Part shown: positions 19,518-35,090 of the stretch, in pieces
Layout of the letters: every line of letters starts with the position of its first letter
Numbering within the stretch: position 1 is the first letter of the stretch
NCBI GenBank assembly: GCA_964448035.1
Contig: CAYUUY010000001.1
Location: 1 to 57,164, forward strand
From: an uncultured Candidatus Saccharibacteria bacterium
GTDB taxonomy: Bacteria; Patescibacteriota; UBA1384; DATEAH01; CAYPSR01
DNA: 57,164 nucleotides
Reading direction: 5' to 3'
Translations under genes and position numbers: made by a program
Notes under the pieces: generated by a model
Told to the model about the DNA's origin: nothing
The model's input: only the letters and a program-made list of their open reading frames with translations
The model's database searches: none

Positions 19518-20119
19518 TGAATATTAAAGAATTAGAAAATAAAATAGAATCTTTTACATCTGAAGTGGATAGATTGAAGGGTAAACTATCTACTCTTGAG
19601 GATCAGTTTGTTGAATCACAAGAACGATTTGATAATTTAAAAATTGAAAAAGAATTAAATAGTAAAGCAGTTGAAGTTCTTACATTAGTACAGGATTCAA
19701 CAAAAACATTAATTATTAATATGTTTGAATCGCTGGTAACACACGCTTTGCAATTTATCCATCAGTCAGACGAATACAAGTTTGAATTGGATTTTGGCAG
19801 AAGAGGAAATTTACCAGAATTATCATTTAACATTTTAACACCAGGTATGCAAGAACCACACGATATTATGACCACAAGAGGCGGCGGGACTTGTGACACA
19901 ACATCGTTAGCATTAAGAGAAGTTTTATTAGAAGTATCAAAGACAAATGGGTTTTTGTTTCTCGACGAGCCATTCAAACATTTAGATAATGACGAAACCG
20001 TAATGAAGGGTATGGAATTTATTAAAGAAATACAGAAAAAAACGGGCAGACAGATTATGATAATAACCCATAAAACAATAATCGCTGACAACGAGGAAGG
20101 TGTTGTATGGATCAAGTAA
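19517..20119 (+). CDS. Rad50/SbcC-like ATPase, C-terminal half (signature, Walker B, H-loop)
   Basis: Short coiled coil, then 'RGGGTCDTTSLALR' (signature-like), 'FLFLDEPFKHLD' (Walker B/D-loop), 'IMIITHK' (H-loop). Confidence 0.75.
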   Translation: MNIKELENKIESFTSEVDRLKGKLSTLEDQFVESQERFDNLKIEKELNSKAVEVLTLVQDSTKTLIINMFESLVTHALQFIHQSDEYKFELDFGRRGNLPELSFNILTPGMQEPHDIMTTRGGGTCDTTSLALREVLLEVSKTNGFLFLDEPFKHLDNDETVMKGMEFIKEIQKKTGRQIMIITHKTIIADNEEGVVWIK

Positions 20120-20889
20120 AAAAATGTGTTATATTGGGTGCAGGTCAATCGATGCAAGAAGGAATTGAAAAAGGTCTTTGGACTAAACTAGATAATATTG
20201 CTACGTTTGGTATTAACGAAGCTTTTCAATTTTTTAATCCCACATTGATAACATTTGTGGATTGGACATTTTATCGTGATAGATTTGATAAAATAAAAAA
20301 TTATCCATTAGTTATTGGAATTAATAATCCCGCCATAGGGTTTTGGTATACAGACAGAAAACGAGGAAGTTATCAAAAATGTGCTAAAGGTGACACTCTA
20401 GTAATGGTTAATGGAAGTTCGGAATATTTTGGAAAGGAATCATTAAAAAAAGGATGTTATACTGGAGTATTAGCTGGACTATTTACAACAACACTAGCAA
20501 TGGCATTAGGATATAACGAAATTTATTTGCTTGGCTGTGACATGGGCCAGAAAGATGGTAAAACCCATTTTTATCAAAATAACAATAAAGGAATTGGCAA
20601 TTTTACAGACGAAAATAATGTTGAAAGAACAGGAGTAGGATTTAACGTATGTGGACATTTTTCTACTGGAGTTTATAATAATACAGATGCATATATTCAA
20701 GATTTTTGGAAACCATATTTGACAGATACTGATGTTAAAATATATAATGTGTCAATGAATTCACGCATTGATACATTTGAAAAAATAACTTATGATGAGT
20801 TTTTTAAAAATATAGAAAACGAGGAAAAACTTGATCAAAATAAAGTTAGAGAACAAATTCGTATCAAAATTAAAACTGATTCCGATTAA
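20107..20889 (+). CDS. DUF115/MptE-like (Maf / GT42 sialyltransferase-like) glycosyltransferase, intein-free paralog
   Basis: 'CVILGAGQSM' (GNGPSL-like N-terminus), 'YTGVLAGLFTTTLAMALGYNEIYLLGCDMG' resembling the '...TSG...ALGYKEIYLSGIDFY' region I recall from Campylobacter Cst-II. Confidence 0.5.
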   Translation: MDQVKKCVILGAGQSMQEGIEKGLWTKLDNIATFGINEAFQFFNPTLITFVDWTFYRDRFDKIKNYPLVIGINNPAIGFWYTDRKRGSYQKCAKGDTLVMVNGSSEYFGKESLKKGCYTGVLAGLFTTTLAMALGYNEIYLLGCDMGQKDGKTHFYQNNNKGIGNFTDENNVERTGVGFNVCGHFSTGVYNNTDAYIQDFWKPYLTDTDVKIYNVSMNSRIDTFEKITYDEFFKNIENEEKLDQNKVREQIRIKIKTDSD

Positions 20890-21029
20890 AACATATATTG
20901 AAAAATTTCTAGGGATTATAAATGTTATGGTTGTTATCTTTAATATAATATTATTGTTTCTTTTCTTATGTGGGATCAGTCTCAAAATTGGCATTCATAA
21001 ATATTGGTATAAACTGTTTGGATATAAAA

Positions 21030-22991
21030 ATGAGTAAAATAAAAAATATTTTAAATGATGGTTTTTATGATGTATTTGGTGAATTAATAAATCAAAATTT
21101 CATAGATATTTATATAACTAAATGCATGAATCAATTAAAAGGAATAAAAGAACAAACAAGTTCACAAGAAATTCCTATTACATCATACCCAATTGCAAAA
21201 TATGAATTGTTACAAAACAAAAAAGGACTATATGTAAAAACAGTACCCGTTAATTATAATCCATGTTTTGTTGTAGCCGGTGGCCCTTCCTTAAAAAACT
21301 TTAATTTTGATTTATTAAAACATAAAACTACTTTTGTATCAAATAAATCCATTTTTGATGTTCCAAATACTAACTATTTTGTTACGACGGATTATACTTT
21401 TTTGAGTTATCTTAAAAAGAATAATCTATATAATAAATGGCGAAGTAATAAAGCAGAAAAATATTTTGTTGCTAACTGTATATCGGATACAATACAAAAC
21501 ATAAATGGACAAATAACTGATACAAAATATAATCTAACTTACGATTTACAGGATTTTGATAAGATAGTTATTTGTAAATCGGCAAAAAACGTGGGTTTTG
21601 ATTTTGACAATTTTAATAGTGGATATAATTCGGGTTTTTGTTTTGATGATAAAACGCAGATTCTTACTAAAAGAGGATGGAAATATTTTAAAAATTTAAA
21701 ACATAATGACACTGTATTAAGTTTAGACCCAAAAACCCAAATAGCGGATTATTATCCTATTTCAGACATTCAATGTTTTGATTATAGTGGTGATTTATAT
21801 TGTAAATCTGTATCAAGAGGACATCAAACCGATTTTGCAGTTACACCAGATCATTCTATGTTTGTTTATAGTAGAGATAGAAAAAAATATGAATTTAAAC
21901 CAGCAAAATTTTTTAATGACCACCCTAAAAATGACCATTACACATTAAAAACCGATTTTAAATGGGTAGGAAAACACGCTGATTATATTAAAATAAACGG
22001 AAAACAATATACTGGTTGGGGAAATTATAAAAAAATTCAATACAAAATAAAATCCGAAATATTTATGCAGTTTTTAGGATGGTATTTAAGCGATGGTAAC
22101 AATTATTGTGGTATAAATAGTTGGGGAGAAACATACAGAATTACTATTTATCAAAGTAAAAAATCTAAACACCTTGATGAAATTAGGTCTATTCTGTCAC
22201 AATTACCATTCAAATATGTAGAATCAGAAAATAAAAATATGCTTTCTTTTCGTATAACAAACAATGTGCTAGGAAAATATATAAAAAAACATTGTGGAGG
22301 ATCTGGTGTGTCCAAAAAAATACCCAATTATCTGAAATTTTTAACACCAGATCTAATTCATTTATTTTTAATGGCATATATGAATGGTGATGGAACTAAA
22401 GTGAAAACTGGCTATACTGTTTCCACGATAAGTAAAAAAATAGGATATGGAATGCTGGAATTGTTTTTAAAAGCAGGATACAAAAGAGTAAATTGCACAC
22501 GTGTAAAAAATAAAAAACACAGAGTTTTTCCTGGTGGGTTTAAAGCAAATTTAAAAAAACATAACTATGTAGTGCACGCAACAAATAATACTACAGAAGA
22601 ACGATTGATATTTAATCCAGATACTATATCTTATAGTGGTAAGGTATACGATGTAACCGTTGAACCACACCATACCATTTTTGTTAAGAGAAACGGTATG
22701 CCATTTTGGTCAGGAAATTGTTCATTTCAAATGGCATTAATAATGGGTTATAATCCAATTTATTTATTGGGATTTGATATGAATTGTGATCAAAAAGATA
22801 CCCATTATCATGACGGATACGGAAAAAGCAAAGAAAAAATGGATCAAAATCTTCTAAATTATTCAACACATTTTAAACATATATTACAAAAATTAAGAAT
22901 AGATAGACCAAATTTGCAAATTATTAGTTGCTCAAAAACAAGCATTTTAAATAAAATAATAGATTATAAAGATATAAAGGATGTTTTATGA
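21030..22991 (+). CDS. DUF115/GT42-like glycosyltransferase precursor containing one intein
   Basis: 'FVVAGGPSLKN' N-terminal motif. Exteins rejoin as 'GYNSGF|CSFQMALIMGYNPIYLLGFDMN', paralogous to 20107-20889. Start taken at 'MSKIKNIL' (track start 20970). Confidence 0.6.
   Translation: MSKIKNILNDGFYDVFGELINQNFIDIYITKCMNQLKGIKEQTSSQEIPITSYPIAKYELLQNKKGLYVKTVPVNYNPCFVVAGGPSLKNFNFDLLKHKTTFVSNKSIFDVPNTNYFVTTDYTFLSYLKKNNLYNKWRSNKAEKYFVANCISDTIQNINGQITDTKYNLTYDLQDFDKIVICKSAKNVGFDFDNFNSGYNSGFCFDDKTQILTKRGWKYFKNLKHNDTVLSLDPKTQIADYYPISDIQCFDYSGDLYCKSVSRGHQTDFAVTPDHSMFVYSRDRKKYEFKPAKFFNDHPKNDHYTLKTDFKWVGKHADYIKINGKQYTGWGNYKKIQYKIKSEIFMQFLGWYLSDGNNYCGINSWGETYRITIYQSKKSKHLDEIRSILSQLPFKYVESENKNMLSFRITNNVLGKYIKKHCGGSGVSKKIPNYLKFLTPDLIHLFLMAYMNGDGTKVKTGYTVSTISKKIGYGMLELFLKAGYKRVNCTRVKNKKHRVFPGGFKANLKKHNYVVHATNNTTEERLIFNPDTISYSGKVYDVTVEPHHTIFVKRNGMPFWSGNCSFQMALIMGYNPIYLLGFDMNCDQKDTHYHDGYGKSKEKMDQNLLNYSTHFKHILQKLRIDRPNLQIISCSKTSILNKIIDYKDIKDVL
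21639..22718 (+). mobile_element. Intein (360 aa) with LAGLIDADG homing endonuclease in a DUF115/GT42-like gene
   Basis: 'CFDDKTQILTKRGW' N-terminus, 'TPDH' block B, 'FLGWYLSDGN' and 'FLMAYMNGDGT' LAGLIDADG motifs, 'VYDVTVEPHHTIFVKRNGMPFWSGN' then +1 Cys. Confidence 0.8.
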
Positions 22992-23128
22992 AAGTTAAAG
23001 ATTTGATTTGGGAATTACAACAAATACATAATCAAGAAAAAGAAGTGGCTTTTGGTAATTCTAACGCTAATGAGTCTTTTATACATAGTGTTGTTGAAAC
23101 AGAATTTAGGGTTTATATTAAAGATTAA
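22988..23128 (+). CDS. small hypothetical protein (46 aa)
   Basis: ATGA coupling with the upstream gene; translated by hand. Confidence 0.35.
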   Translation: MKVKDLIWELQQIHNQEKEVAFGNSNANESFIHSVVETEFRVYIKD

Positions 23129-23149
23129 TTGTAAGGAAAGGAACAAATA

Positions 23150-23830
23150 ATGAGTGAAAAAATTTCGATTTTAATTCCTGTTTATAACAGGGAAGGTTTT
23201 ATTGAACGAGCAATAAATAGTAGTTTAAATCAAACATATAAGAATTTACAAATTCTTGTTTATGATGACGGATCGAATGATAAAACCAGAGAAATTGTGA
23301 TTGATATAGCACAAAAGGATAATCGTGTAAAATTGTTTTGTAATACACCAACAAAAAACGAAGGAGTAGGAAAGGCCCGAAATTTGTTATTAAAATTTTG
23401 CGATACAAAGTATGCTATATGGCAAGATAGTGACGACATTTCTGCACCAACACGAATCGAAGAACAATTAAAAGAGATGACTGAAGACAAAATGGTTTAT
23501 TGTACGTGGGAAAATTTTAAGACTAAAGTGCCAGGAACAACAAGAGGGTTTGCAACTCTTATGTTTCCAGTAAACAAGGGTGTTCTTTTTCCTGAAGATA
23601 TGAAGTTTGGCGGGGAAGATCAATGTTGGAGAGATGAAATGGAAAAGATTTATCCTACATCCGATGTAAATCAAGTTCTTTATTCAATAGATTTTCACGG
23701 AAACCGAATAGGAACGTGGAAACGAAAGATTGACAAAAATTGGAACGGAAAATACGATTTGAATGATATTAAAGACTTGTCATATGAAGATGCAATAAAA
23801 AAATATATGAACGAATATCAAACCAAATAA
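23150..23830 (+). CDS. Family 2 glycosyltransferase (GT-A)
   Basis: 'ISILIPVYNREGFIERAINSSLNQTY', 'YDDGSNDKT', 'QDSDD' DxD motif. Confidence 0.8.
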   Translation: MSEKISILIPVYNREGFIERAINSSLNQTYKNLQILVYDDGSNDKTREIVIDIAQKDNRVKLFCNTPTKNEGVGKARNLLLKFCDTKYAIWQDSDDISAPTRIEEQLKEMTEDKMVYCTWENFKTKVPGTTRGFATLMFPVNKGVLFPEDMKFGGEDQCWRDEMEKIYPTSDVNQVLYSIDFHGNRIGTWKRKIDKNWNGKYDLNDIKDLSYEDAIKKYMNEYQTK

Positions 23831-23839
23831 AGGAAATAT

Positions 23840-24463
23840 ATGACTCCAGAACTTTTGCTATTCTATCAAAAACTTGTTAATAAACAAAATTTCTCCCTTG
23901 TCCGTTTTGGTGATGGAGAACATAACATTATGGACAATGTTGCATGTAATCGAAAAGGTTTTGATTTTGATCCTAAAGATGCTAGAGATCAAGAATTTAA
24001 AAGAGATTTACGTGAAGCATTTAAATTTAAAAGTCCACGATATTATAAAGGGCTGGATTACACGAATATAGAAGAAAACATAGTTTATGCTTGTCTTTTT
24101 GTTAATAATAGTTATTTAGATTTTTTGGACAATTTCTCACCTCTTTTTGAAAACTGTATTTTTGTTGGTAATGAATTAGGAATGGATTGGCAATTGCCAT
24201 TTAAACCACAAAAATATATTAGAATTAAAGAAAACGCTTGGAAGGACTATAATTCTAATTTATTAAATCTTTTTTTATCTAATTATTTAACCAATAAGAA
24301 TAATGAAATTGTATTAGTTGCAGGTGGCCCCATGAGTAATGTTTTAATTTATAAATTATATAAAAATAATCCTAATAATACTTATATAAATGTTGGAAGT
24401 GTATTTGATCCTCACATTTTTGGTTTTCTTACTCGCAAATATCAAGAAAGGTTATGTACATGA
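23840..24463 (+). CDS. GT-D-like (DUF1792-type) glycosyltransferase
   Basis: N-terminal 'SLVRFGDGEHNIM' resembles the DUF1792 'RxGDGE' signature; located between GT2 and HAD genes. Confidence 0.45.
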   Translation: MTPELLLFYQKLVNKQNFSLVRFGDGEHNIMDNVACNRKGFDFDPKDARDQEFKRDLREAFKFKSPRYYKGLDYTNIEENIVYACLFVNNSYLDFLDNFSPLFENCIFVGNELGMDWQLPFKPQKYIRIKENAWKDYNSNLLNLFLSNYLTNKNNEIVLVAGGPMSNVLIYKLYKNNPNNTYINVGSVFDPHIFGFLTRKYQERLCT

Positions 24464-24843
24464 AATACAAAGGATATTTAGCATTTGATTTTGATGGTGT
24501 AATAGCATCATATAATAGACCTTTTATTATAGATAAATTGGGTAAACCACAAAAATCTGTAATAGAAACAATTCGTTATTTTTACGACCAAGGATATTAT
24601 ATACTAATTTTTACTGGACGATTAGAAACTGTCAAATTTACAAAATGGTTAGAAAAAAATAATGTACCTTATCATGGTGTAAATGTACAACCAAGCAATA
24701 TGGCTGGAACAAATAATGATAAACCTTTTTATAATGTAATTATAGACGATAAGGCTGTTAATTTTCATTGGGAAAACAACCATAAATCTAAAGATGAATT
24801 AATTAGTGAAATTGAAAGGAAGTTAGAATGGGCGAAGGAATAA
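24454..24843 (+). CDS. HAD-superfamily phosphatase-like protein
   Basis: Motif I 'AFDFDGVI', 'IFTGR', terminal 'IIDDKA'. Confidence 0.55.
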   Translation: MYMKYKGYLAFDFDGVIASYNRPFIIDKLGKPQKSVIETIRYFYDQGYYILIFTGRLETVKFTKWLEKNNVPYHGVNVQPSNMAGTNNDKPFYNVIIDDKAVNFHWENNHKSKDELISEIERKLEWAKE

Positions 24844-25529
24844 ATGATATCGTTGTGAGAGCATGTTTATCAACTAATTTTGGAGATAATCTTAACTCAG
24901 AGTTAGTTCGATTAATTTCTGGACAAACACCAAAATTGGTAAATAACAGATTTGGCAATCTAGAAAAAGAAACTATCTATATGGCAATAGGCAGTGTTCT
25001 TGGATGGGCTACTGAAGAAACTGAAGTCTGGGGAGCAGGATTTATTTCTGATTCAGATTTTGTTACAGATATACCAACGCCAAAAAGAATCCATGCCGTT
25101 AGAGGGCCAGAAACAAGAAATATTTTAATAACTAAAGGAATCAGATGTCCTGAAATATTTGGTGACCCCGCATTATTGATGCCCAGATTTTATAATCCAA
25201 AATTAGAAAAGAAATATAAAATATCAGTAATTCCACATGCAATTGATAGAGTATTAATTCCAGAATTAACCAAATCATTTCCTAATGCTCATTTTATTGA
25301 TGTAACACAAGATGTATATAAATTTATAGACGAGGTTATTAAATCAGAATATATTATTTCATCTGCCCTTCATGGGTGTATTACTGCGTATGCATATGGT
25401 GTTCCTTATGAACATCAAAAATTTTCAGACAAGGTCTTGGGAAATGGGTTCAAATTCGAAGATTTTGAAAAAAGCAAACAATATATTGATTTAGATAAAT
25501 TACTAAAAGTCTGTCCATTTGTTCAATAA
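24828..25529 (+). CDS. Polysaccharide pyruvyl transferase-like protein
   Basis: 'NFGDNLN', 'HAVRGPETR', 'GDPALL', 'ISSALHGCITAYAYGVP' match the PS_pyruv_trans pattern as I recall it. Confidence 0.55.
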   Translation: MGEGINDIVVRACLSTNFGDNLNSELVRLISGQTPKLVNNRFGNLEKETIYMAIGSVLGWATEETEVWGAGFISDSDFVTDIPTPKRIHAVRGPETRNILITKGIRCPEIFGDPALLMPRFYNPKLEKKYKISVIPHAIDRVLIPELTKSFPNAHFIDVTQDVYKFIDEVIKSEYIISSALHGCITAYAYGVPYEHQKFSDKVLGNGFKFEDFEKSKQYIDLDKLLKVCPFVQ

Positions 25530-25777: not shown

Positions 25778-25807
25778 TTGACAAAAACAAAATAAATATG
25801 GTATAAT
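25778..25807 (+). promoter_or_regulatory. Sigma70-like promoter, copy 3 (TTGACA-N18-TATAAT, extended -10 TGG)
   Basis: ttgaca 25778-25783, tataat 25802-25807, in a 574-nt gap with no long ORF (small ORF 25661-25774 is listed under rejected); followed by GGAGG RBS and ATG 25830. Confidence 0.55.
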
Positions 25808-25829
25808 TATAATAAATGGAGGATTTATT

Positions 25830-26567: not shown

Positions 26568-26568
26568 A

Positions 26569-28860: not shown

Positions 28861-28862
28861 GT

Positions 28863-29168
28863 ATGAACATATTTTGTGATATATATGGAACATTGACCGA
28901 TGATGGAGAACATAGAAATGGTATTCCAAATTTATATAGGATATGTAAAATAAAACAATTATCACTTACTAATACTGTATATTTGTGGAGCGGGAATGGG
29001 CAAACATATGCTGAAGAGTTTCGCATTAAACATGGTTTGCTTCGTTGTACAGCAATAGGAAAACCACATTTAATAATTGATGATAATCCAACTATAAGAC
29101 CAAATTGGGATTCTTTAATTAAAACACCAGATTGTTTAGATAAGGAGCATATAAATGTCAATACTTAA
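28863..29168 (+). CDS. HAD-like small protein with degenerate motif I
   Basis: 'FCDIYGTLT' (DxYGT instead of DxDGT), 'GKP', 'IIDDN'. Confidence 0.4.
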   Translation: MNIFCDIYGTLTDDGEHRNGIPNLYRICKIKQLSLTNTVYLWSGNGQTYAEEFRIKHGLLRCTAIGKPHLIIDDNPTIRPNWDSLIKTPDCLDKEHINVNT

Positions 29169-29391
29169 TAACACACAGTTGGATCGTGATAGAGTTAATT
29201 GTTTTAAATGTTATTGGGTCGTGCATCCACACTATGACGATTTTGATAATTTATCTGTAATGTGTTCTTGTCCTTATATGGAAATGATAAAGGATGAATA
29301 TGATTATTATAATCAAAATCATAATTGCAGATACTTTTATAAACAAAAAACAATTTGTCAAAAAATTATTAAATTTTTGAGGGGTTTTTAA
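29155..29391 (+). CDS. Cys/His-rich hypothetical protein
   Basis: 78-aa ORF, 'CFKC...CSC...C'. Confidence 0.5.
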   Translation: MSILNNTQLDRDRVNCFKCYWVVHPHYDDFDNLSVMCSCPYMEMIKDEYDYYNQNHNCRYFYKQKTICQKIIKFLRGF

Positions 29392-29392
29392 T

Positions 29393-30088
29393 ATGAAATT
29401 TATACTTAACGAAAATCAGCATGATAGGGATGTTGAATTAGCAAAATTATTAAATTTACCATTAGAAAAAATACAAAAATTACCAATGTGCACACCCGAT
29501 TCAATTAGAATTTCTAATGGTGATAAACCAGAAAATTTAGAAGACTTGTATCATGACTATGAACACTTAAATTTTCCAGCTTATTTACGCACATTAATGA
29601 TGACCAGTGCAACAAGAAGACACCCTGCTCTTTTTGAATTATTAAGAGAAACAAAAAATAAGATTTGTCTTGATTTTGGATCAGGAGTAGGAACGCACGC
29701 TATTGCTTTACATGAAAATAGTAATATTGTTCATTTACTTGATGTTCCAGGAAAATTATTTGATTTTGCTAAAAAAAGACTAACAAATATAGGTTGCGAA
29801 TTTTTTATATGGTTTAATAACAATATGGCTTTACCAGAAGATTATTATGATGTTGTTATTTGTTCTGACTGCTTGGAACATGTCCAATCACCAATCAAAG
29901 AATTGAAACGTATTCATAAATCAATGAAAGTAGGTGGTATTCTTCACTTGCTTGTTTCAACAATGAGAAAACCTAGTAGTGGTCACTTTGATAGTTCAAT
30001 TGATGAATGGATAAAGTATGGTAAGAAATTTATGATTGACAATTTCTATGAAATTAAACCAACAATTTATCAGAAAAAGGAAAAATAA
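29393..30088 (+). CDS. Class I SAM-dependent methyltransferase
   Basis: Motif I 'CLDFGSGVGTHA', 'LLDV', 'VVICSDCLEHV', 'GGILHL'. Confidence 0.75.
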   Translation: MKFILNENQHDRDVELAKLLNLPLEKIQKLPMCTPDSIRISNGDKPENLEDLYHDYEHLNFPAYLRTLMMTSATRRHPALFELLRETKNKICLDFGSGVGTHAIALHENSNIVHLLDVPGKLFDFAKKRLTNIGCEFFIWFNNNMALPEDYYDVVICSDCLEHVQSPIKELKRIHKSMKVGGILHLLVSTMRKPSSGHFDSSIDEWIKYGKKFMIDNFYEIKPTIYQKKEK

Positions 30089-30157
30089 TGGAAGATAAAA
30101 CAATTTTAAATATAAATCCTAAAGATATTACTATTTTATCAGGTATTTCTGGAAGTA

Positions 30158-30643
30158 ATGGCAAAAGAACTTTATGAAGCAGGAACCACATTTATTTTGG
30201 TTACTGCATATAGCGAGCAAGAAAACGAACGATTACTAAATGTTAGAAAAAATGTAACAGATACAATTGATAAAAAATATATAAATAATGTATCTTTTTA
30301 TATTAGAAAATCATACAAATTAGATTCAAGACTTAATATGAATGGTAAAAGTGGGGCCTGTTATGCACCATTAACAGAATTATTAATTTGCCCAGATGGA
30401 AAATTAAGACTATGTTGTATGGATATCGATGAAAATGAAGCCTTTGGTGATCTTCATAAAGAAAATTTTGAAGATATTATTATAAATAATCATGAAAGAC
30501 TTACTAAACTTCGAGAATCTCTTATTAAATCAGAAAGAACATTAGAACTATGTAAAAAGTGCAATTTTGTAAATAGAATGAAAGGTTTTTATATGAGTAA
30601 GGGTGATTTTAGAAATAATGCATCAAAATTAAAAAGGAAATAA
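30158..30643 (+). CDS. SPASM/twitch-like Cys-rich domain protein without a radical SAM core
   Basis: 'GACYAPLTELLICPDGKLRLCCMD...FGDLHKENFEDII...LELCKKCNF' resembles the C-terminal auxiliary-cluster domain of radical SAM/SPASM proteins; no CxxxCxxC present. Confidence 0.4.
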   Translation: MAKELYEAGTTFILVTAYSEQENERLLNVRKNVTDTIDKKYINNVSFYIRKSYKLDSRLNMNGKSGACYAPLTELLICPDGKLRLCCMDIDENEAFGDLHKENFEDIIINNHERLTKLRESLIKSERTLELCKKCNFVNRMKGFYMSKGDFRNNASKLKRK

Positions 30644-30852
30644 TGATACACGCACTTGTAATAGCCGGTTCATATCAACAATTCAAATATTGGCTATGGG
30701 AAAATCGACAATGTGAAAAAGACTATTTTTATGTAAATGATTGGGAGAGCTGTCTTGGATTACGAAATTTACCAATTTTATTGGTAGAACAGTATGGTAA
30801 AAGTCCAGTCAATCCTTATATATTATCGGAAATGATACAAGATGATTGCTAA
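30643..30852 (+). CDS. hypothetical protein
   Basis: 69-aa ORF, TAATG coupling. Confidence 0.45.
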
Positions 30853-31336
30853 AAAACTCAAATTAACAATGGGAGCCAATTGTCAACTTTCACCACAGGC
30901 CCACATTGGATATCACGAAACTGGAAAAGGATCAATAACTTTAGGGAATAAGGTCATTATTCGTCATGGTTGCGTTATCAGAACTTGTTCTGGTGACATA
31001 AAAATAGCAAATAACACGGTTATTAACTATAACTGTATTATTCATGGCCTTGGTGGCGTTACAATAGGGTCTGACGTGCTTTTTTCACCAAATGTGCAAA
31101 TGTATGCTCAAAATCATGGAACGGCCCGTGACAGGCTAATTAGAAGCCAAAGCAACGAATCTAAAGGTATTAAGATAGGAAATGATGTTTGGATAGGAGC
31201 AGGAGTCATTATTTTAGATGGAGTAACAATAGAAACCGGTGCAATTATTGGTGCTGGGTCAATTGTTAATAAAAATGTGCCTTCTTATGAAATTTGGGCA
31301 GGTAATCCAGCAAAAAAGATTGGAGAACGTAAATGA
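30842..31336 (+). CDS. Left-handed beta-helix (hexapeptide repeat) acetyltransferase
   Basis: Hexapeptide repeats '[31 protein letters not shown]' and terminal '[10 protein letters not shown]'. Confidence 0.8.
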
Positions 31337-31722
31337 ATTCGGTATTAGATAAACAATTATGTGATAAATATCCTAAAATTTTTGTTCAACGCAATTTACA
31401 ACCAGATCAAACAGCAATGTGTTGGGGATTTGAATGTGGTGATGGTTGGTATTGGCTCATAGATTCACTTTGTAATCAGTTACAATGGGATATAGATCAT
31501 AACCGTTATCCACAGATAGAAGCAGTACAAGTTAAAGAAAAGTTTGGTGGTTTACGTTTTTATGTTTCTGGTTGTAATGAAAACCAATCTGGAAGTATAG
31601 AATTTGCCGAATTATTATCATCTACTATTTGTGAAAAATGCGGTCAACCAGGAGCCACACAGACAGAAACAGGATGGATACAAACTTTGTGTGATAAATG
31701 TAAAGATGAAGGAAACCAATGA
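31333..31722 (+). CDS. hypothetical protein (conserved phage '[10 protein letters not shown]' type)
   Basis: '[12 protein letters not shown]' and 'CEKCG...CDKC' recur in uncharacterised phage proteins. Confidence 0.55.
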
Positions 31723-32594
31723 AAAGAATCGCCTTTATAATACCATTTTTCTACAAATGGGGCAACTATAGTAATGTCCGTGCTAACTATGAATTTTTAC
31801 AAAAGCATGGTTATATTGTAGATATTTATAGCAAAAAAGATAATAAACCTATCAATTTTGATAATTATGACCTAGTTATGATGCATGGGTCTGGGGCTTT
31901 TTTAACAGATGAACAATTTAAAAATTGTAAAATACCTATTATTGCACTCGGCTGGTCTGATCCCAACATGTTTAATGAAGTTCATTTTAATCAAGGCACT
32001 ATTTATTGTACTAATGATTTAACGCTATCCCATGAATTAAAGGGTAAACCTATATATTTTTACAATACAGCATGTGATAAAAGACATCATATTGACTTAA
32101 AACTAAAAAAGGAAACCGATATTTTAGTATATGGAGTAGGAAAACATCCTTTTGTTCCTAATAGAAATAAAGTAGTCAATAATCTAAGAAGAGACGGTTT
32201 TTCTGTTAAAGTGTTTGGCCGCAATTGGGATTCTCATAAAGACACATATGATTTTATTGAAGGTGAAGGGTTATCTTGTGAAATTTGTAAAGCACATATT
32301 CTTCTTGATGTGACAAACAAAGAAACGGCCTGGGGACATAGGGTTTTTGAATCTAGTGCAAGAGGAACACCAGTTTTAACAATAGACAGAGAAGATACAC
32401 GTTCTATGTTTGAACCAGATTCGGAAATTGTTCTTTATAAAAATTATAATGATATGAAAGAAAAATTAACTTTTTATTTAAAGTCAAAAGAAATACTTCG
32501 TGAAATTGGTATTAATGCTCAAAAAAGATGTTACAAAGACCATGATATTAGTATAAAAATAAAAGAATTGATTAAAATAATAGGGGATTTTTAA
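31719..32594 (+). CDS. GT1 / CgeB-like glycosyltransferase
   Basis: C-terminal 'RVFESSARGTPVLT' (E-x7-E-region-like GT-B motif); Rossmann-like N-terminus 'KRIAFIIPF'. Confidence 0.5.
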   Translation: MKRIAFIIPFFYKWGNYSNVRANYEFLQKHGYIVDIYSKKDNKPINFDNYDLVMMHGSGAFLTDEQFKNCKIPIIALGWSDPNMFNEVHFNQGTIYCTNDLTLSHELKGKPIYFYNTACDKRHHIDLKLKKETDILVYGVGKHPFVPNRNKVVNNLRRDGFSVKVFGRNWDSHKDTYDFIEGEGLSCEICKAHILLDVTNKETAWGHRVFESSARGTPVLTIDREDTRSMFEPDSEIVLYKNYNDMKEKLTFYLKSKEILREIGINAQKRCYKDHDISIKIKELIKIIGDF

Positions 32595-32791
32595 TGGAAA
32601 AACTAAAGAATTTTCTTTTTCGTAAAGTCCTTAATCATAAATGGTCAAAAGAAAAATACAGATGGATAATAGTCGAAGAACATATGAATGATGACATATT
32701 TTTATACGAAACAAATGGTATATTTATATCATCAATTACTGATCCAAAAAAAAATCGTAATTTTTACAAAAGAGTGAGGAAAATACAATGA
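32594..32791 (+). CDS. hypothetical protein
   Basis: 65-aa ORF, coupled. Confidence 0.45.
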   Translation: MEKLKNFLFRKVLNHKWSKEKYRWIIVEEHMNDDIFLYETNGIFISSITDPKKNRNFYKRVRKIQ

Positions 32792-32970
32792 AAAATCAAT
32801 ATTTAATTGGAGTACCCAAAAGGGATTTTATTAGACTATTGGATGGTCATGCTTTTGTTGGATGTACTAAGGATTTTGAACAAATTCAATCAATCCAAAA
32901 ACAGTTTAATTATAAAGATAAATCTTTTAAAATTTACAAGCTAGTTGAGGTTAAAGATGAACAAGCATAA
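32788..32970 (+). CDS. hypothetical protein
   Basis: 60-aa ORF, ATGA coupling. Confidence 0.45.
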   Translation: MKNQYLIGVPKRDFIRLLDGHAFVGCTKDFEQIQSIQKQFNYKDKSFKIYKLVEVKDEQA

Positions 32971-33193
32971 ATGCGAATGCGGAAAATTGGCCACTTGGTG
33001 CTATATGCCAAATGATAGTGTCGGATATAAATGCGATGATTGCGTACCTAGGGGTTGTACCTGTAATCAATATCCGATTGACGATGATTATGATAATCTG
33101 AATTTAGATAATTGGATTGCTCAATTAGATGATGAAGGTAGATTACTTCCATGTTGCGAATGGTGGTATGACGAAGAAGGGTGGGATAAATGA
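32945..33193 (+). CDS. Cys-rich hypothetical protein
   Basis: 'CECG...CDDC...CTC...CC'; the start may be the internal ATG at 32957. Confidence 0.5.
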   Translation: MRLKMNKHKCECGKLATWCYMPNDSVGYKCDDCVPRGCTCNQYPIDDDYDNLNLDNWIAQLDDEGRLLPCCEWWYDEEGWDK

Positions 33194-33561
33194 ACATAGC
33201 TGTTATAGGTAGCAGAGAATTTAAAGATAAAAACTTTGTTTTTCAAACATTAAGTGGGTTTTTTGACAATCAGCTAAGTTATGGTAATATTTCTTCCGAT
33301 TATGTTTTAGTATCTGGGGGTGCAAAGGGTGTTGATTCCTGGGGAGAAGAATTCTGGAAAAAACATTCTGGTGAATGTATTATATTTAAACCTGAATGGG
33401 ATAAATATGGAAAATCTGCGGGATTCATAAGAAATAAATTAATTATTGAAAAATCCAATAGAATTATTGCTTTCTGGAATGGTATATCAAAAGGAACAAA
33501 GCATAGTATAGATTTAGCAATTTCTATGGACAAACCAGTAGATATTTATGTGAGGAATTAA
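33190..33561 (+). CDS. DUF2493 / SLOG-superfamily protein
   Basis: 'IAVIGSREF', 'LVSGGAKGVDSWGEEFW', 'KPEWDKYGKSAGFIRN', 'FWNGISKGTKH' match my recollection of the DUF2493 (YspA-related SLOG) pattern. Confidence 0.6.
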   Translation: MNIAVIGSREFKDKNFVFQTLSGFFDNQLSYGNISSDYVLVSGGAKGVDSWGEEFWKKHSGECIIFKPEWDKYGKSAGFIRNKLIIEKSNRIIAFWNGISKGTKHSIDLAISMDKPVDIYVRN

Positions 33562-33585
33562 TTAAACACGGGAAGGATTATAGAT

Positions 33586-33888
33586 ATGTGTAAATGGGGA
33601 ACAGAATCTATTATTAAATTGGCATATCCAATGTCTTGTAGCGGACGAAAAGAAATTAGTGTGGATTCGTGTCTTGCTAAACTAATTCAAACACTCAATG
33701 AGTATAAAATTCATACCCTTGGGTGCTGTTGTGGACATGGAAAAGCTCATGGAAGCGTATTAATTCATCCAGATAACTTTGAAATAACCGAATTCGGCTA
33801 TTGTGAACTTAAATTTGGGGATGGGGAGAAAATGACAAATAAGGCATATTTAGAAGCTATAGACGAAAGTAAAGATATTACTAATTAA
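33586..33888 (+). CDS. hypothetical protein ('CCCGHG' motif)
   Basis: 100-aa ORF, 'VDSCLAKLIQTLNEYKIHTLGCCCGHG'. Confidence 0.5.
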   Translation: MCKWGTESIIKLAYPMSCSGRKEISVDSCLAKLIQTLNEYKIHTLGCCCGHGKAHGSVLIHPDNFEITEFGYCELKFGDGEKMTNKAYLEAIDESKDITN

Positions 33889-33917
33889 ATTAGTAACTTA
33901 TCAACAAAGGATTAATT

Positions 33918-34187
33918 ATGACAATTGCACATATGGACGATTTATTTCCAGAGGAAATGGACAATAAAAAATCAAAGAAACATCTTAAAAACATAACAGA
34001 AGATGAATTTGATACGTTAAAAGAAATGGGACTTTTATGGGAGTTCTACCCAGAGGCTCCAGAATTCTTTAGGGATATAAACAAACCACAGATAGGAAGA
34101 TGTATTTGCTGTGGCAAACCAGTGGCTGACTTAATACATTCAACTAAACCCGATTTATGTTCTGAGTGTGGAGATGAATGGATATAA
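33918..34187 (+). CDS. hypothetical protein with C-terminal zinc ribbon
   Basis: 'CICCG...CSEC'. Confidence 0.5.
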   Translation: MTIAHMDDLFPEEMDNKKSKKHLKNITEDEFDTLKEMGLLWEFYPEAPEFFRDINKPQIGRCICCGKPVADLIHSTKPDLCSECGDEWI

Positions 34188-34489
34188 TAACAGAAGAGAA
34201 AAATATCATGAATAAAAACATAGAAATAAAAGGCACAATACAGTTAGATATGAATGATGATTGTATTTTAATTACCCGAAACTCTAAAGATCATAAACAA
34301 GAAGTAATTGAATTTCTGGAAAATACTTACCAGTTAAATACTCGCAGGTATAAGATTCAAAAAGGTTATCTAAAGAAAGCTCAAGTTGCGGGATTTAAGT
34401 GTAAAATTCTTGGATGGTCTTGTGTTAGAAAAGCTACAAAAAAAGACATTGCATTTTTTACTATAATAGAAGATTTAAAGGGGGGTTAA
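34178..34489 (+). CDS. hypothetical protein
   Basis: 103-aa ORF (alternative start at 'MNKNIEIKG'). Confidence 0.5.
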   Translation: MDIITEEKNIMNKNIEIKGTIQLDMNDDCILITRNSKDHKQEVIEFLENTYQLNTRRYKIQKGYLKKAQVAGFKCKILGWSCVRKATKKDIAFFTIIEDLKGG

Positions 34490-34493
34490 AAAA

Positions 34494-35090
34494 ATGATTA
34501 TTGTTAGTTTTTATACACCAGGTAACTACGAAAAAGTAATGAATTCTCATTTACGACCATCTTTAGAAAAATGGGGATTGAAGCATTATATAGAAGAGGT
34601 ACCCGATTTAGGAAATTGGTTCAAAAACACAAGTTTTAAAAGTCACTTCATGCTAAAGTGTTTTAATGAATTTAAAGAAGACCTTTGTTTTATTGATGCG
34701 GATGGAGTCATTGAAGAATTTCCCGAATTATTATTTAACATTCCAGAAAATTGTGATGTTGCGGCCCACCAGCTTGATTGGGAAAAATATTGGAAAGGTA
34801 AATCTGGCTCTGATCATCGTGAATTTTTATCTGGTACATTGTTCATGCGATACACTCCTGAAGTTCTTGATATCACACATGATTGGATTGAACAATGTGA
34901 AAATGACCCAGGTACAAAAGAACAAAAAATACTTGGTAATTTAATTGATAAATCAACAGCTATTAATTTTTTTAATTTGCCAGCCAGTTATTGTGCAATC
35001 ATTAATCACTCTGGAATTATTCCTGAGTATATTGGTAAACCAGTGATAACCCATCATCAGGCATCCAGAAAATACAAGAGTAAACATTGA
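34494..35090 (+). CDS. GT-A-like nucleotide-sugar transferase (putative)
   Basis: 'IIVSFYTPGNY' N-terminus and 'CFIDADGV' DxD-type motif; last gene of the island. Confidence 0.4.
   Translation: MIIVSFYTPGNYEKVMNSHLRPSLEKWGLKHYIEEVPDLGNWFKNTSFKSHFMLKCFNEFKEDLCFIDADGVIEEFPELLFNIPENCDVAAHQLDWEKYWKGKSGSDHREFLSGTLFMRYTPEVLDITHDWIEQCENDPGTKEQKILGNLIDKSTAINFFNLPASYCAIINHSGIIPEYIGKPVITHHQASRKYKSKH

What the first reader, a model, noticed from the sequence alone, without database searches (positions are those of the whole stretch)
20107..35090. 15-kb phage-encoded glycan synthesis and decoration island
A contiguous same-strand block encodes these enzymes:
- Two DUF115/GT42-like transferases, the type linked to nonulosonic-acid transfer.
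- GT2 ('DDGSND', 'DSDD').
- A GT-D-like protein ('RFGDGE').
- Two HAD-like proteins, one with a degenerate DxY motif I.
- A polysaccharide pyruvyl transferase.
- A B12-radical SAM enzyme, which in sugar pathways is typically a C-methyltransferase.
- A SAM methyltransferase.
- A stand-alone SPASM-like domain.
- An LbH acetyltransferase.
- A CgeB/GT1-like transferase.
- A DxD GT-A-like protein.

There are at least five to six transferases plus four modifying activities, but no obvious nucleotide-sugar synthase, flippase or polymerase in the window. This points to stepwise building of a decorated oligosaccharide on a pre-existing acceptor. Candidates are virion proteins, a host surface glycan or receptor (superinfection exclusion), or DNA. 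That two of these genes maintain inteins implies they are under strong purifying selection in the phage.
Basis: partly seen in the sequence, partly recalled or inferred. Interest (0 to 1): 0.75.

Follow-up and report, generated by a model that had tools for sequence, protein, structure and literature searches.

The report
Phage glycan-building gene island
An uncultured tailed phage carries a conserved block of about a dozen soluble sugar-transferring and sugar-decorating enzymes, with no sugar-activation or export genes. It most likely builds a decorated glycan on an existing target, probably the phage's own particle, but the target is not shown.

Summary
Profile, structure and comparative searches support 11 of the 13 listed items:
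- two DUF115/sialyltransferase-like proteins
- GT2
- a GT-D enzyme (fold-confirmed)
- one HAD phosphatase
- a pyruvyl transferase
- a B12-radical SAM enzyme
- a SAM methyltransferase
- a stand-alone SPASM/twitch protein
- an LbH acetyltransferase
- a CgeB-like GT
- a Nucleotid_trans-like GT-A.

Both inteins are confirmed to the residue by intein-less orthologues. The second "HAD" has no support. Strict GT42 membership is unproven. About 3.3 kb of the 15 kb is small ORFs with no link to glycans.

The island sits in a roughly 66-kb siphovirus-like phage, between the SbcCD genes and the convergent tail-fibre genes. A core cassette (DUF115-2, GT2, GT-D, pyruvyl transferase, rSAM, GT1_2, Nucleotid_trans) recurs in three other phage contigs. 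Decorating genes and other glycan genes differ between relatives.

The window encodes no integral membrane protein, flippase, polymerase, priming transferase, nucleotide-sugar synthase or DNA base-hydroxymethylation enzyme.

My best reading is cytoplasmic glycosylation of virion proteins, analogous to the Megavirinae fibril clusters. Remodelling of the host envelope is a serious rival. DNA modification is unlikely. The acceptor is inferred, not demonstrated.

The parts
20107..20889 (+). DUF115-1: a 260-aa DUF115/MptE-like, sialyltransferase-like protein. It overlaps the stop of the SbcC C-terminal gene by 13 nt. It is the conserved anchor gene of the island.
   Evidence: PF01973 E 1.1e-4 and PF06002 E 3.9e-4, both below cut-off. 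phrog_4603 E 1.6e-9. Invariant G143-x-D145 and T153-H154-x-Y156 in 25 homologues. AF2 pLDDT 94.5. BFVD DUF115 matches down to E 1.7e-10. The family has 274 clusters at E<=1e-30.
20719..20748 (+). Perfect sigma-70 consensus site (TTGACA-N18-TATAAT) upstream of DUF115-2.
   Evidence: four perfect sites in the window against 0.2 expected. Function not shown.
21030..22991 (+). DUF115-2: the second DUF115/sialyltransferase-like gene, 293 aa once spliced, interrupted by an intein.
   Evidence: Spliced protein: phrog_4603 E 2e-17; PF01973 27.1 bits over profile positions 23-167 of 171. Intein-less orthologues in L003 (298 aa) and L013 (291 aa). Shares the G..SG..A..LGy.eIYLLG.D..THy motif with DUF115-1.
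21639..22718 (+). Intein 1: 360 aa with a LAGLIDADG-type endonuclease insert, running from Cys1 through TPDH to SGN|C. It is inserted inside the conserved motif of DUF115-2.
23150..23830 (+). GT2 glycosyltransferase: 226 aa, soluble, no TM segment.
   Evidence: PF00535 E 1.5e-30. Best NCBIfam match TuaG, far below cut-off. No TM segment.
23840..24463 (+). GT-D (DUF1792-fold) glycosyltransferase with an invariant RFGDGE (DxE) motif.
24460..24843 (+). Small HAD-superfamily phosphatase with a DFDGV motif I. Absent from L003.
   Evidence: phrog_1238 E 7e-28. LNS2/PNKP HAD matches are weak. Absence from L003.
24828..25529 (+). Polysaccharide pyruvyl transferase family protein.
   Evidence: PF04230 E 4.5e-11, above cut-off. 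Orthologues in L003, L004, L013 and L014.
25778..25807 (+). Perfect sigma-70 consensus site with an extended -10 TG, in the 574-nt gap upstream of the rSAM sub-block.
26569..28860 (+). Class-B (B12-binding domain) radical SAM enzyme, 433 aa once spliced, interrupted by an intein. The reaction type is unresolved.
   Evidence: The intein-less L003 orthologue is 429 aa.
27661..28650 (+). Intein 2: 330 aa with a LAGLIDADG insert, running from Cys1 through TPNH to SGN|S. It is 27% identical to intein 1 (E 2e-24).
29393..30088 (+). Class I SAM-dependent methyltransferase.
   Evidence: PF13489 E 2e-13. 56% identical orthologue inside the L013 island.
30158..30643 (+). Stand-alone SPASM/twitch Fe-S domain protein, 161 aa. 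It has no radical SAM core of its own. Absent from L003.
   Evidence: PF13186 E 2.3e-9. NF033640 twitch domain E 2.6e-9.
30842..31336 (+). Left-handed beta-helix (hexapeptide) O-acetyltransferase.
   Evidence: PF00132 E 3e-15. Best NCBIfam matches WbbJ, LacA and Maa, below cut-offs. Orthologue in L003.
31719..32594 (+). CgeB-like GT-B C-terminal domain protein (Glyco_trans_1_2).
   Evidence: PF13524 E 9e-20. Orthologues in L003, L013 and L014.
32594..34489 (+). Seven small ORFs of 60-123 aa, several Cys-rich, one a YAcAr/SLOG protein at 33190-33561. Probably not part of the glycan machinery. Only the 60-aa ORF is kept in L003.
34494..35090 (+). Nucleotid_trans-like (GT-A, DxD) protein, 198 aa.
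   Evidence: PF03407 on 8 of 21 homologues; the window protein scores E 0.029, collinear with the profile. A homologue lies within 10 kb in 12 of the 30 related loci that hold a DUF115-1 homologue.
35138..36138 (+). Possible extension of the island: a 121-aa unknown protein with a homologue inside the L013 island, and a 212-aa P-loop kinase (weak PRK/zeta-toxin similarity) that is 78% identical in L003.
   Evidence: The role is inferred only.

Best explanation
The island is a modular, phage-encoded glycan assembly and decoration cassette made only of soluble enzymes.

Proposed mechanism:
- The genes lie on the same strand as the replication genes. Three perfect sigma-70-type sites suggest host-polymerase transcription in up to three units.
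- The enzymes act in the host cytoplasm and draw on the host's pools of nucleotide sugars, PEP, acetyl-CoA, SAM and, if it is needed, cobalamin.
- Six probable glycosyltransferases build a short glycan: two DUF115/sialyltransferase-like proteins, GT2, GT-D, a CgeB-like protein and a Nucleotid_trans-like protein.
- A pyruvyl transferase, an O-acetyltransferase, a SAM methyltransferase and a class-B radical SAM enzyme then decorate it. The radical SAM step could be C-methylation, deoxygenation or a rearrangement; which one is undetermined.
- The window has no priming phosphoglycosyl transferase, flippase, polymerase or ligase, so the glycan must be built directly on a pre-existing acceptor.
- I think the most likely acceptor is one or more of the phage's own virion proteins. 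The tail-fibre module is the immediate convergent neighbour. This would give the particle a glycan coat that differs between related phages.

Shown: the enzyme families, the intein junctions, cassette conservation, variability of accessory genes, and the absence of membrane and activation genes.

Inferred: that one glycan is built, the order of steps, the donors, and the acceptor.
For: Enzyme identities:
- Family and fold assignments.

Conservation and variability:
- The cassette DUF115-2 / GT2 / GT-D / pyruvyl transferase, plus rSAM, GT1_2 and Nucleotid_trans, recurs in L003 (54-78% aa identity), L013 (a 138-kb contig, 39-65%) and L014.
- Island genes are as conserved as SbcCD and the exonuclease.
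- Accessory content varies between relatives. L013 has a TylF methyltransferase and a carbamoyltransferase. L008 has a sulfotransferase and a KpsC/S-like protein. L007 has LicD, a DegT aminotransferase, a dehydratase and a cytidylyltransferase. L006 has PIG-L and WbqC.
- Among 115 ORFs next to DUF115-1 homologues in 23 IMG/VR phage contigs, the most frequent Pfam families are GT2 (10), LicD (6), Nucleotid_trans (5) and PS_pyruv_trans (4).

Independence from export machinery:
- No island enzyme has a TM segment, and the window encodes no multi-span membrane protein.
- No nucleotide-sugar synthase, flippase or polymerase was found.

Position:
- The island abuts the convergent Laminin_G_3 tail-fibre genes here and in L004, L006 and L013. 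A fibre homologue lies within 10 kb in 10 of the 33 related loci compared.

Precedents:
- Megavirinae fibril-glycosylation clusters hold 6-33 genes and vary by clade. They contain a DUF1792-like GT next to a pyruvyltransferase (Mg537/Mg538), methyltransferases and sulfotransferases (PMC10117803).
- Maf-type DUF115 enzymes O-glycosylate a protein, flagellin, in the cytoplasm (PMC11339370).
- Mycobacteriophage capsid and tail-tube proteins are glycosylated (Freeman 2023, as cited in PMC12619734).
Against: - Nothing identifies the acceptor. I found no Ser/Thr-rich repeat or other candidate acceptor motif in the structural proteins.
- The one bacterial locus recovered with a GT-D relative (L041, a Taibaiella MAG) looks like an ordinary polysaccharide locus, with several GT2s, a pyruvyl transferase and an LbH acetyltransferase. 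That chemistry normally runs on lipid-linked intermediates.
- The island is on the replication-gene strand, not the structural-gene strand.
- Proximity to the fibre genes may only reflect shared genome architecture.
- The donor for the DUF115 proteins is unknown, and the window has no nonulosonic-acid pathway.
- DUF115-1 has no significant PDB fold match.
Confidence: 0.45

Rival explanations
1. The soluble enzymes remodel the host envelope. They act at the cytoplasmic face on the host's undecaprenyl-linked O-antigen, capsule, teichoic-acid or S-layer-glycan intermediates. The host's own flippase and ligase then export the altered glycan. The changed cell surface would block superinfection or stop progeny re-adsorbing to lysing cells.
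For: - GT2, pyruvyl transferase, LbH acetyltransferase and GT-D co-occur in a bacterial polysaccharide-type locus (L041).
- The best NCBIfam neighbours of the GT2 and the acetyltransferase are TuaG, PglI, EpsE, WbbJ and WcaF.
- Relatives carry LicD, KpsC/S-like, WbqC and PIG-L genes, which are typical of surface polysaccharides.
- The island is co-oriented with early and middle genes and has sigma-70-type sites.
Against: - No priming transferase, flippase, polymerase, ligase or any membrane protein is encoded.
- The phage looks lytic: it has its own PolB, ligase and SbcCD, and I saw no integrase in the window. Known envelope conversion is a property of temperate phages.
- All NCBIfam hits are far below the equivalog cut-offs.
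- Hijacking a host pathway would require matching a specific host intermediate, yet the island content changes freely among close relatives.
Confidence: 0.3
2. The enzymes glycosylate a host protein or a small molecule. Candidates are flagellin, pilin or an S-layer protein (Maf-like action that disables or masks a receptor), or a phage-made metabolite or RiPP involving the B12-rSAM, SPASM protein and methyltransferase.
For: - DUF115/Maf enzymes act on flagellin (PMC11339370).
- The rSAM also resembles RiPP C-methyltransferases (ApyD, TIGR03975; E about 1e-28), and a SPASM/twitch protein is present.
Against: - I recognised no precursor peptide, transporter or peptidase of a RiPP system in the island.
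- The SPASM protein is absent from L003, which keeps the rest of the cassette.
- The stronger rSAM matches are HpnJ and AprD4, which act on sugars.
- Six glycosyltransferases are more than a single receptor-masking step would need.
Confidence: 0.1
3. The glycosyltransferases hypermodify DNA by building a glycan on a modified base of the phage genome to evade restriction, as in phage MT/5mYOX/GT clusters or T-even glucosylation.
For: - Phage GTs related to LPS and teichoic-acid enzymes can place mono- to trisaccharides on 5hmC (10.1101/2023.12.21.572611).
- The island follows the replication and recombination genes.
- An HD-domain protein and P-loop kinases are present in the window.
Against: - No C5-cytosine methyltransferase, TET/JBP dioxygenase or thymidylate-synthase-like hydroxymethylase was found among the scanned ORFs. 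The only DNA-methylase trace is a 164-aa D12 (N6-adenine) fragment.
- About 9 kb of the genome lies outside the window. The 6.4 kb of it that I could see holds structural-type genes.
- To my knowledge, pyruvyl transferase, GT-D and DUF115 enzymes have no known DNA substrates.
Confidence: 0.05
4. The island is passenger DNA: a recently captured fragment of a bacterial polysaccharide locus, riddled with selfish inteins and with no function for the phage.
For: - Bacterial-type enzyme families are present.
- There is a high load of mobile elements: three inteins and a NUMOD homing-endonuclease gene in the window.
- GC content matches the rest of the phage, so it neither supports nor contradicts recent capture.
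Against: - All ORFs are intact.
- Catalytic motifs are invariant.
- The cassette is kept in gene order across phages that have diverged to 40-70% aa identity, and is as conserved as core genes.
- Base composition and GC skew are uniform with the flanks.
Confidence: 0.05

Closest known systems
Megavirinae (Mimivirus, Megavirus, Moumouvirus) fibril-glycosylation gene clusters (PMC10117803; PMC8456856)
   Same: Both are virus-encoded clusters of soluble glycosyltransferases and decorating enzymes. Both contain a DUF1792/GT-D-like GT next to a pyruvyltransferase (Mg537/Mg538, compared with 23840 and 24828 here) and methyltransferases. Gene content differs between related viruses while the genomic position stays fixed.
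   Different: The giant-virus clusters also encode the nucleotide-sugar pathways, and their products are proven to sit on virion fibrils. This is a 66-kb tailed phage with no activation genes in the window. It has DUF115 proteins, a B12-radical SAM enzyme and inteins. No product or acceptor is known. I did not test sequence homology to the giant-virus genes.
Mycobacteriophage virion glycosylation (Freeman et al. 2023, as cited in PMC12619734; the paper itself could not be read here)
   Same: Glycosyltransferases encoded by a tailed phage act in the cytoplasm on capsid and tail-tube subunits, with no export machinery.
   Different: Those phages carry one or two GT genes (PMC11256854). From memory, these lie among the structural genes. 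The island here has six GTs and four decorating enzymes, and it lies at the end of the replication block on the opposite strand to the structural genes.
Maf (DUF115) flagellin nonulosonic-acid O-glycosyltransferases and GT42 sialyltransferases Cst-I/Cst-II (PMC11339370; PDB 1RO7, 5MU5)
   Same: The two DUF115-like proteins give near-full-length but sub-threshold matches to PF01973. They give weak matches to PF06002, Cst-II and the Maf structure 5MU5. The shared ...IYLLG.D... nucleotide-binding-type motif is present.
   Different: The proteins here are about 250-290 aa single-domain proteins, whereas Maf has about 650 aa with flanking domains. The invariant histidine of this family (THF/Y) does not align with the catalytic His188 of Cst-II. 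There is no significant PDB fold hit. No CMP-sugar pathway is present. The donor is unknown.
Phage DNA-glycan hypermodification clusters (MT + 5mYOX + GT; 10.1101/2023.12.21.572611)
   Same: These are phage gene clusters with several glycosyltransferases derived from LPS or teichoic-acid enzymes, sometimes located near structural genes.
   Different: The defining cytosine methyltransferase and dioxygenase (or a dNMP hydroxymethylase) are absent here.
Bacterial Wzx/Wzy-type polysaccharide loci and cyanophage 'LPS gene' islands (the latter from my own knowledge, not checked here)
   Same: The enzyme families are the same (GT2, pyruvyl transferase, LbH acetyltransferase, GT-D; see L041), and the gene content is hypervariable.
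   Different: The window has no priming transferase, flippase, polymerase, chain-length regulator or nucleotide-sugar genes.

Membership tests
GT42 sialyltransferases (Cst-I/Cst-II, PF06002) | Sequence match at or above the Pfam gathering score | tested here: not met
   DUF115-1 scores 20.4 bits against a cut-off of 25. DUF115-2 gives no PF06002 hit.
GT42 sialyltransferases (Cst-I/Cst-II, PF06002) | Fold similarity to Cst-II or Cst-I structures | tested here: not met
   The Foldseek PDB search with the pLDDT-94.5 model gave no hit at E<=1e-3, and Cst-II was not in the top 50. The best-probability hits were MptE HPPK 8sd5 (0.57) and ST6GALNAC2 (0.35). The sequence profile aligns with Cst-II residues 2-219 only at E 0.006.
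GT42 sialyltransferases (Cst-I/Cst-II, PF06002) | Catalytic His188 and Tyr156/Tyr162 equivalents (positions recalled from the Cst-II literature) | tested here: inconclusive
   The family-invariant T153-H154-x-Y156 aligns near the Cst-II Tyr156/162 region. The window residue aligned near His188 is not conserved in the family.
DUF115 / MptE-like (PF01973; includes Maf) | Pfam match above the gathering score | tested here: not met
   22.5 bits (DUF115-1) and 27.1 bits (spliced DUF115-2, profile positions 23-167 of 171), against a cut-off of 34.6. Five relatives tested also score 24-28 bits.
DUF115 / MptE-like (PF01973; includes Maf) | Structural similarity to recognised DUF115 proteins | tested here: met
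   BFVD gave 20 hits at E<=1e-3, with probability 1.0 and TM about 0.4-0.56. Several are named DUF115/MptE-like and come from uncultured Caudovirales and Mimiviridae ChoanoV1.
GT-D (DUF1792, PF08759) | GT-D fold | tested here: met
   The top three Foldseek PDB hits are 4PHR, 4PFX and 5V4A, with probability 1.0, E 2.7e-6 to 2.8e-5 and TMq 0.6.
GT-D (DUF1792, PF08759) | DxE metal-binding motif | tested here: met
   R22-F-G24-D25-G26-E27 is invariant in 16 homologues and aligns with vRFGDGE of 4PHR.
GT-D (DUF1792, PF08759) | Pfam match above the gathering score | tested here: not met
   19 bits against a cut-off of 27. The profile-to-PDB search gives E 3.5e-5.
Class B (cobalamin-dependent) radical SAM enzymes | CxxxCxxC cluster motif plus an N-terminal B12-binding domain | tested here: met
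   The motif reads CGWGCSFC. PF04055 scores 80 bits. After splicing, PF02310 scores 33.5 bits against a cut-off of 32.1.
Class B (cobalamin-dependent) radical SAM enzymes | Assignment to a characterised subfamily (C-methyltransferase or other) | tested here: not met
   The best match is HpnJ at 121.6 bits against a cut-off of 577.6, followed by BchE, ApyD, P-methyltransferases and AprD4. All are far below their cut-offs. The closest structure is AprD4. Cobalamin binding itself cannot be tested here.
Inteins with a LAGLIDADG homing endonuclease | Cys1, block B TxxH, a C-terminal Asn followed by Cys/Ser/Thr, a LAGLIDADG insert, and precise absence from orthologues | tested here: met
   Both inserts have all these features, and L003 orthologues align without gaps across the junctions. 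The penultimate residue is Gly, not the usual His.
Wzx/Wzy- or ABC-dependent surface-polysaccharide locus | Priming phosphoglycosyl transferase, flippase or ABC exporter, polymerase or ligase | tested here: not met
   No such Pfam or PHROG hit, and no protein with more than one hydrophobic segment anywhere in the window.
Gtr-type serotype-conversion module | GtrA flippase, membrane-anchored GtrB and polytopic GtrC | tested here: not met
   The GT2 matches GtrB-like PHROGs only over its N-terminal catalytic half (E 1.4e-9) and has no TM segment. There is no GtrA or GtrC.
Phage DNA-glycan hypermodification cluster | An enzyme that makes the reactive base: C5-MT plus 5mYOX/TET, or a dCMP/dUMP hydroxymethylase | tested here: not met
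   None was found among the scanned ORFs of the 57-kb window. The 6.4 kb seen beyond the right end holds structural-type genes. About 2-3 kb of the genome was not seen.
Virus-encoded virion glycosylation system (Megavirinae, chlorovirus, mycobacteriophage type) | The glycan is found covalently on virion proteins and depends on the viral genes | not testable with these tools
   This needs particles or heterologous expression with mass spectrometry. Only the gene-content analogy was assessed (PMC10117803).

The most novel reading that the evidence does not exclude
A widespread lineage of uncultured tailed phages coats its own particles with a complex decorated glycan, made by a self-contained cytoplasmic cassette. 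The glycan could be pyruvylated, acetylated and methylated, radical-SAM-modified, and possibly capped with a nonulosonic or ulosonic acid. The cassette's accessory genes are swapped between relatives. The result would be phage 'glycotypes', the tailed-phage counterpart of the Megavirinae fibril glycans.
Probability: 0.3. Interest if true: 0.8.

Novelty: new variant of a known kind. Interest (0 to 1): 0.5.

Why it matters
If the product sits on the virion, elaborate virus-made glycan coats would no longer be limited to giant viruses and the one- or two-enzyme systems of actinophages. They would extend to ordinary-sized tailed phages. That bears on adsorption, on evasion of host or predator recognition, and on particle stability.

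The island also offers a compact, soluble, export-independent enzyme set for glyco-engineering: sialyltransferase-like proteins, GT-D, a pyruvyl transferase and a class-B radical SAM enzyme.

If the target is instead the host envelope, this would be a case of a lytic phage rewriting its host's surface. That idea has long been proposed for cyanophage 'LPS genes' and, to my knowledge, remains unproven.

Either way, the DUF115-1 family (274 clusters at 50% identity with E<=1e-30) has no assigned function. A full-text search for DUF115 together with phage found no paper on such phage proteins.

Tried and rejected
- Megablast of the island against INPHARED found nothing, and tblastn of DUF115-1 found nothing. 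PolB gave one 24%-identity hit over 16% of its length. The phage has no cultured relative.
- A single-protein IMG/VR scan with DUF115-1 found nothing. The alignment-based scan worked.
- The Foldseek PDB search with the DUF115-1 model gave no significant hit. phmmer of spliced DUF115-2, the kinase and the 101-aa 'HAD2' against PDB gave nothing. The 198-aa protein gave no meaningful PDB hit.
- 'HAD2' (28863-29168) was compared with the true HAD by BLASTP and gave no alignment. I reject that annotation.
- I searched the structural proteins for Ser/Thr-rich acceptor-like tracts and found nothing distinctive.
- Rfam and tRNA scans of the window found nothing.
A trimmed GT-D alignment returned only three distant bacterial or MAG loci. 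No host could be assigned.
- Exact-protein look-ups for two end-of-window ORFs failed, probably because of different start codons. Two other ORFs worked.
- The Freeman 2023 paper is not held in the library.
- I considered and rejected a RiPP reading (no precursor or transporter) and a DNA-modification reading (no base-activating enzyme).

Full report
**What is in the sequence**

The window is AT-rich (about 29% GC). The + strand is coding up to about 37.1 kb, and the - strand from there on. It belongs to an uncultured siphovirus-like phage.
- The + block encodes a DNA ligase, a family-B polymerase, an RNA ligase, exonucleases and a split SbcC/SbcD.
- The - block encodes a tape-measure protein, a Laminin_G_3 tail fibre and head genes.
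- The exact proteins are in NCBI as hypothetical proteins of a 'Novosphingobium' MAG, on a 66-kb contig. That is evidently a mis-binned phage.
- Nothing similar exists among 50,697 deposited phage genomes.

**Checking the inventory**

Pfam, NCBIfam and PHROG scans confirm most of the list.
- GT2, 23150-23830, E 1.5e-30.
- Polysaccharide pyruvyl transferase, 24828-25529, above the curated cut-off.
- A radical SAM enzyme with a B12-binding domain, 26569-28860.
- A class I methyltransferase, 29393-30088.
- A stand-alone SPASM/twitch protein, 30158-30643.
- A hexapeptide acetyltransferase, 30842-31336.
- A CgeB-like PF13524 protein, 31719-32594.
- A small HAD phosphatase, 24460-24843, phrog_1238 E 7e-28.

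GT-D protein (23840-24463):
- It is sub-threshold by Pfam.
- Its 16-member family keeps RFGDGE invariant.
- Its profile finds the DUF1792 structure 4PHR at E 3.5e-5.
- Its AF2 model (pLDDT 93.5) has the three DUF1792 structures as its top three PDB matches, with probability 1.0 and TMq 0.6.
- I count GT-D as confirmed.

The 198-aa 'DxD' protein (34494-35090):
- It has no significant Pfam hit of its own (E 0.029).
- Eight of its 21 homologues carry PF03407 Nucleotid_trans.

The two DUF115-like proteins:
- Both stay below the PF01973 cut-off, at 22.5 and 27.1 bits against 34.6. The spliced DUF115-2 match covers profile positions 23-167 of 171.
- Both match phrog_4603, annotated 'alpha-2,3-sialyltransferase', at 1.6e-9 and 2e-17.
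- They share a 40-column motif, G..SG..A..LGy.eIYLLG.D..THy.
- The DUF115-1 model (pLDDT 94.5) matches many viral DUF115/MptE-like models at E down to 1.7e-10.
- It matches no solved structure significantly. Its profile aligns with Cst-II only at E 0.006.
- 'DUF115-like' therefore holds. 'GT42' and 'nonulosonic-acid transferase' remain a lead only.

The second 'HAD-like' ORF (28863-29168) has no support of any kind.

About 3.3 kb of the 15 kb is small ORFs with no link to glycans. These include seven between 32594 and 34489, one of them a YAcAr/SLOG protein.

**Inteins**

The close relative L003 carries DUF115-2 (298 aa) and rSAM (429 aa) orthologues without inteins. Alignment to them fixes the inteins at nt 21639-22718 (360 aa) and nt 27661-28650 (330 aa).
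- Both begin with Cys, have a TxxH block B and a LAGLIDADG insert, and end in SGN followed by Cys or Ser.
- They are 27% identical to each other (E 2e-24).
- The DUF115-2 intein sits inside the conserved motif.
- PolB carries a third intein of the same type.
- Related inteins occur in three related contigs, in ORFs that match none of the island genes.
- Some DUF115-1 family members are 550-630 aa with split matches, which suggests inteins there too.
- Inteins are therefore a feature of this phage lineage. They mark conserved motifs rather than proving that the genes are essential.

**What is missing**

- No island enzyme has a transmembrane segment, and no ORF in the window has more than one hydrophobic segment.
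- Scans of every ORF of 150 aa or more found no nucleotide-sugar synthase, priming transferase, flippase, polymerase or ligase. They also found no C5-methyltransferase, TET-like dioxygenase or thymidylate-synthase-like hydroxymethylase. Four small ORFs in the structural module were not scanned.
- Window position 1 is a contig end in one assembly.
- The 6.4 kb visible beyond the right end holds structural-type genes. One is a GDSL-esterase/Laminin_G_3 protein.

**Comparative evidence**

DUF115-1 homologues led to related phage contigs.
- In L003 (68% identity) the gene order is the same: SbcC-N, SbcD, SbcC-C, DUF115-1, DUF115-2, GT2, GT-D, pyruvyl transferase, rSAM, acetyltransferase, GT1_2, Nucleotid_trans, kinase. 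A ClpP gene is added. The HAD, methyltransferase, SPASM protein and most small ORFs are absent.
- Island orthologues are 54-78% identical, the same range as the replication and recombination core at 53-76%. This is direct evidence of comparable constraint.
- The full cassette recurs in an IMG/VR contig (L014).
- It also recurs in a 138-kb contig (L013). There it is joined by a TylF methyltransferase and a carbamoyltransferase, and it again abuts a convergent Laminin_G_3 fibre gene.
- More distant relatives keep DUF115-1 after SbcCD but carry other glycan genes. These include methyltransferases and GT2s (L004), PIG-L and WbqC (L006), and a dehydratase, DegT, a cytidylyltransferase and LicD (L007). 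L008 has a sulfotransferase and a KpsC/S-like protein.
- Among 115 ORFs flanking DUF115-1 homologues in 23 IMG/VR contigs, the commonest families are GT2, LicD, Nucleotid_trans and PS_pyruv_trans.
- The DUF115-1 family is large: 274 clusters at E<=1e-30.
- The island is therefore a conserved locus with a stable core and exchangeable decorating genes, the same pattern seen in surface-glycan loci.

**How it most likely works**

The enzymes are soluble and depend on host pools. They must build on something that already exists. I favour the phage's own virion proteins as the acceptor, with a probability of about 0.45.
- The system needs no export machinery.
- Maf-type DUF115 enzymes are cytoplasmic protein O-glycosyltransferases (PMC11339370). 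From my own knowledge, the characterised DUF1792 GT-D enzymes also extend O-glycans on a protein, a streptococcal serine-rich adhesin.
- The island is the immediate neighbour of the fibre module.
- The closest described analogue is the Megavirinae fibril-glycosylation cluster. It also pairs a DUF1792-like GT with a pyruvyltransferase and varies by clade (PMC10117803).
- Glycosylated mycobacteriophage capsids and tail tubes show that tailed phages can do this (cited in PMC12619734).

Against this reading:
- No acceptor motif was found.
- The one bacterial locus recovered with a GT-D relative is an ordinary polysaccharide locus.
- The genes are co-oriented with early and middle genes.

The main rival, at about 0.3, is remodelling of host lipid-linked surface-glycan intermediates that the host then exports. 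Modification of a host protein or a metabolite (about 0.1), DNA glycosylation (about 0.05) and non-functional passenger DNA (about 0.05) are less likely, for the reasons given under each rival.

The radical SAM reaction is open. The best family matches are HpnJ (4e-35) and BchE, followed by RiPP C-methyltransferases and P-methyltransferases. All are far below their cut-offs. The nearest solved structure is the aminoglycoside diol-dehydratase AprD4, at E 2.9e-15.

**Verdict**

- Virus-encoded glycan clusters are a known kind. This enzyme combination, in an ordinary-sized tailed phage with a conserved core and swappable decorations, does not appear in the literature I could search.
- I rate it a new variant of a known kind, with interest 0.5.

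Noticed in passing
window 3785-7168 (+): The family-B DNA polymerase carries a third LAGLIDADG-type intein, at about aa 356-753 (CFSKDTDVLM ... NWSGN|S). This is shown by alignment to the intein-less 677-aa PolB of L004. All three inteins in the window end in SGN rather than HN.
   Followed up: partly
window 20719-20748, 25778-25807, 35087-35116 (+) and 7855-7882 (-): Four perfect TTGACA-N16-18-TATAAT sites, against 0.2 expected from shuffles. Three are on the coding strand and divide the island into possible transcription units. Two of them have an extended -10 TG. This hints at a host with classical sigma-70 promoters, which from my own knowledge would not fit a Bacteroidota host.
   Followed up: partly
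window 15017-16129, 16287-17219, 19517-20119 (+): The SbcC-like ATPase appears split into an N-terminal gene (AAA_23) and a C-terminal 200-aa gene (SMC_N in relatives). SbcD and about 2.3 kb of small ORFs lie between them. The same arrangement is seen in L003, L004 and L008.
   Followed up: partly
window 52778-53533 (-): A papain-family (Peptidase_C1) cysteine protease, E 8e-19, lies next to the 416-aa gene that is probably the major capsid gene. To my knowledge this would be an unusual family for a prohead protease. Relatives instead carry ClpP inside or beside the glycan island (L003, L006).
   Followed up: no
L009:1459-2829 (about 4-5 kb beyond the right end of the window): A 456-aa protein combines a GDSL/SGNH esterase domain with a Laminin_G_3 domain, among the head and packaging genes. 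It may be a virion-borne carbohydrate esterase, which would point to an O-acetylated host surface glycan.
   Followed up: no
window 36465-36728 (+): An 87-aa protein with a lipoprotein signal and lipobox (MILMFTGC), at the end of the + block just before the convergent junction. It is conserved in L003.
   Followed up: no
window 35500-36138 (+): A P-loop kinase with weak PRK/uridine-kinase and zeta-toxin similarity. At 78% identity it is the most conserved gene between the window and L003, and it also occurs in L022. It could phosphorylate a sugar or nucleotide sugar, or it could be a nucleotide-salvage enzyme.
   Followed up: partly
L004:5438-5641 and L005:4075-4278: A related phage encodes a ribosomal protein S21 homologue, together with Trypsin_2 and M50 peptidases, in the replication block.
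   Followed up: no
window 18349-19200 (+): A 283-aa Cys-rich protein with no detectable family lies between SbcD and the SbcC C-terminal gene. It found no match in L003 by BLASTP.
   Followed up: no
window 8190-8780 (+); L003:15809-16270; L008:12514-12996: NUMOD-type homing-endonuclease genes related to window 8190-8780 sit inside the glycan islands of relatives. Together with the inteins, this indicates heavy traffic of selfish elements through this locus.
   Followed up: no
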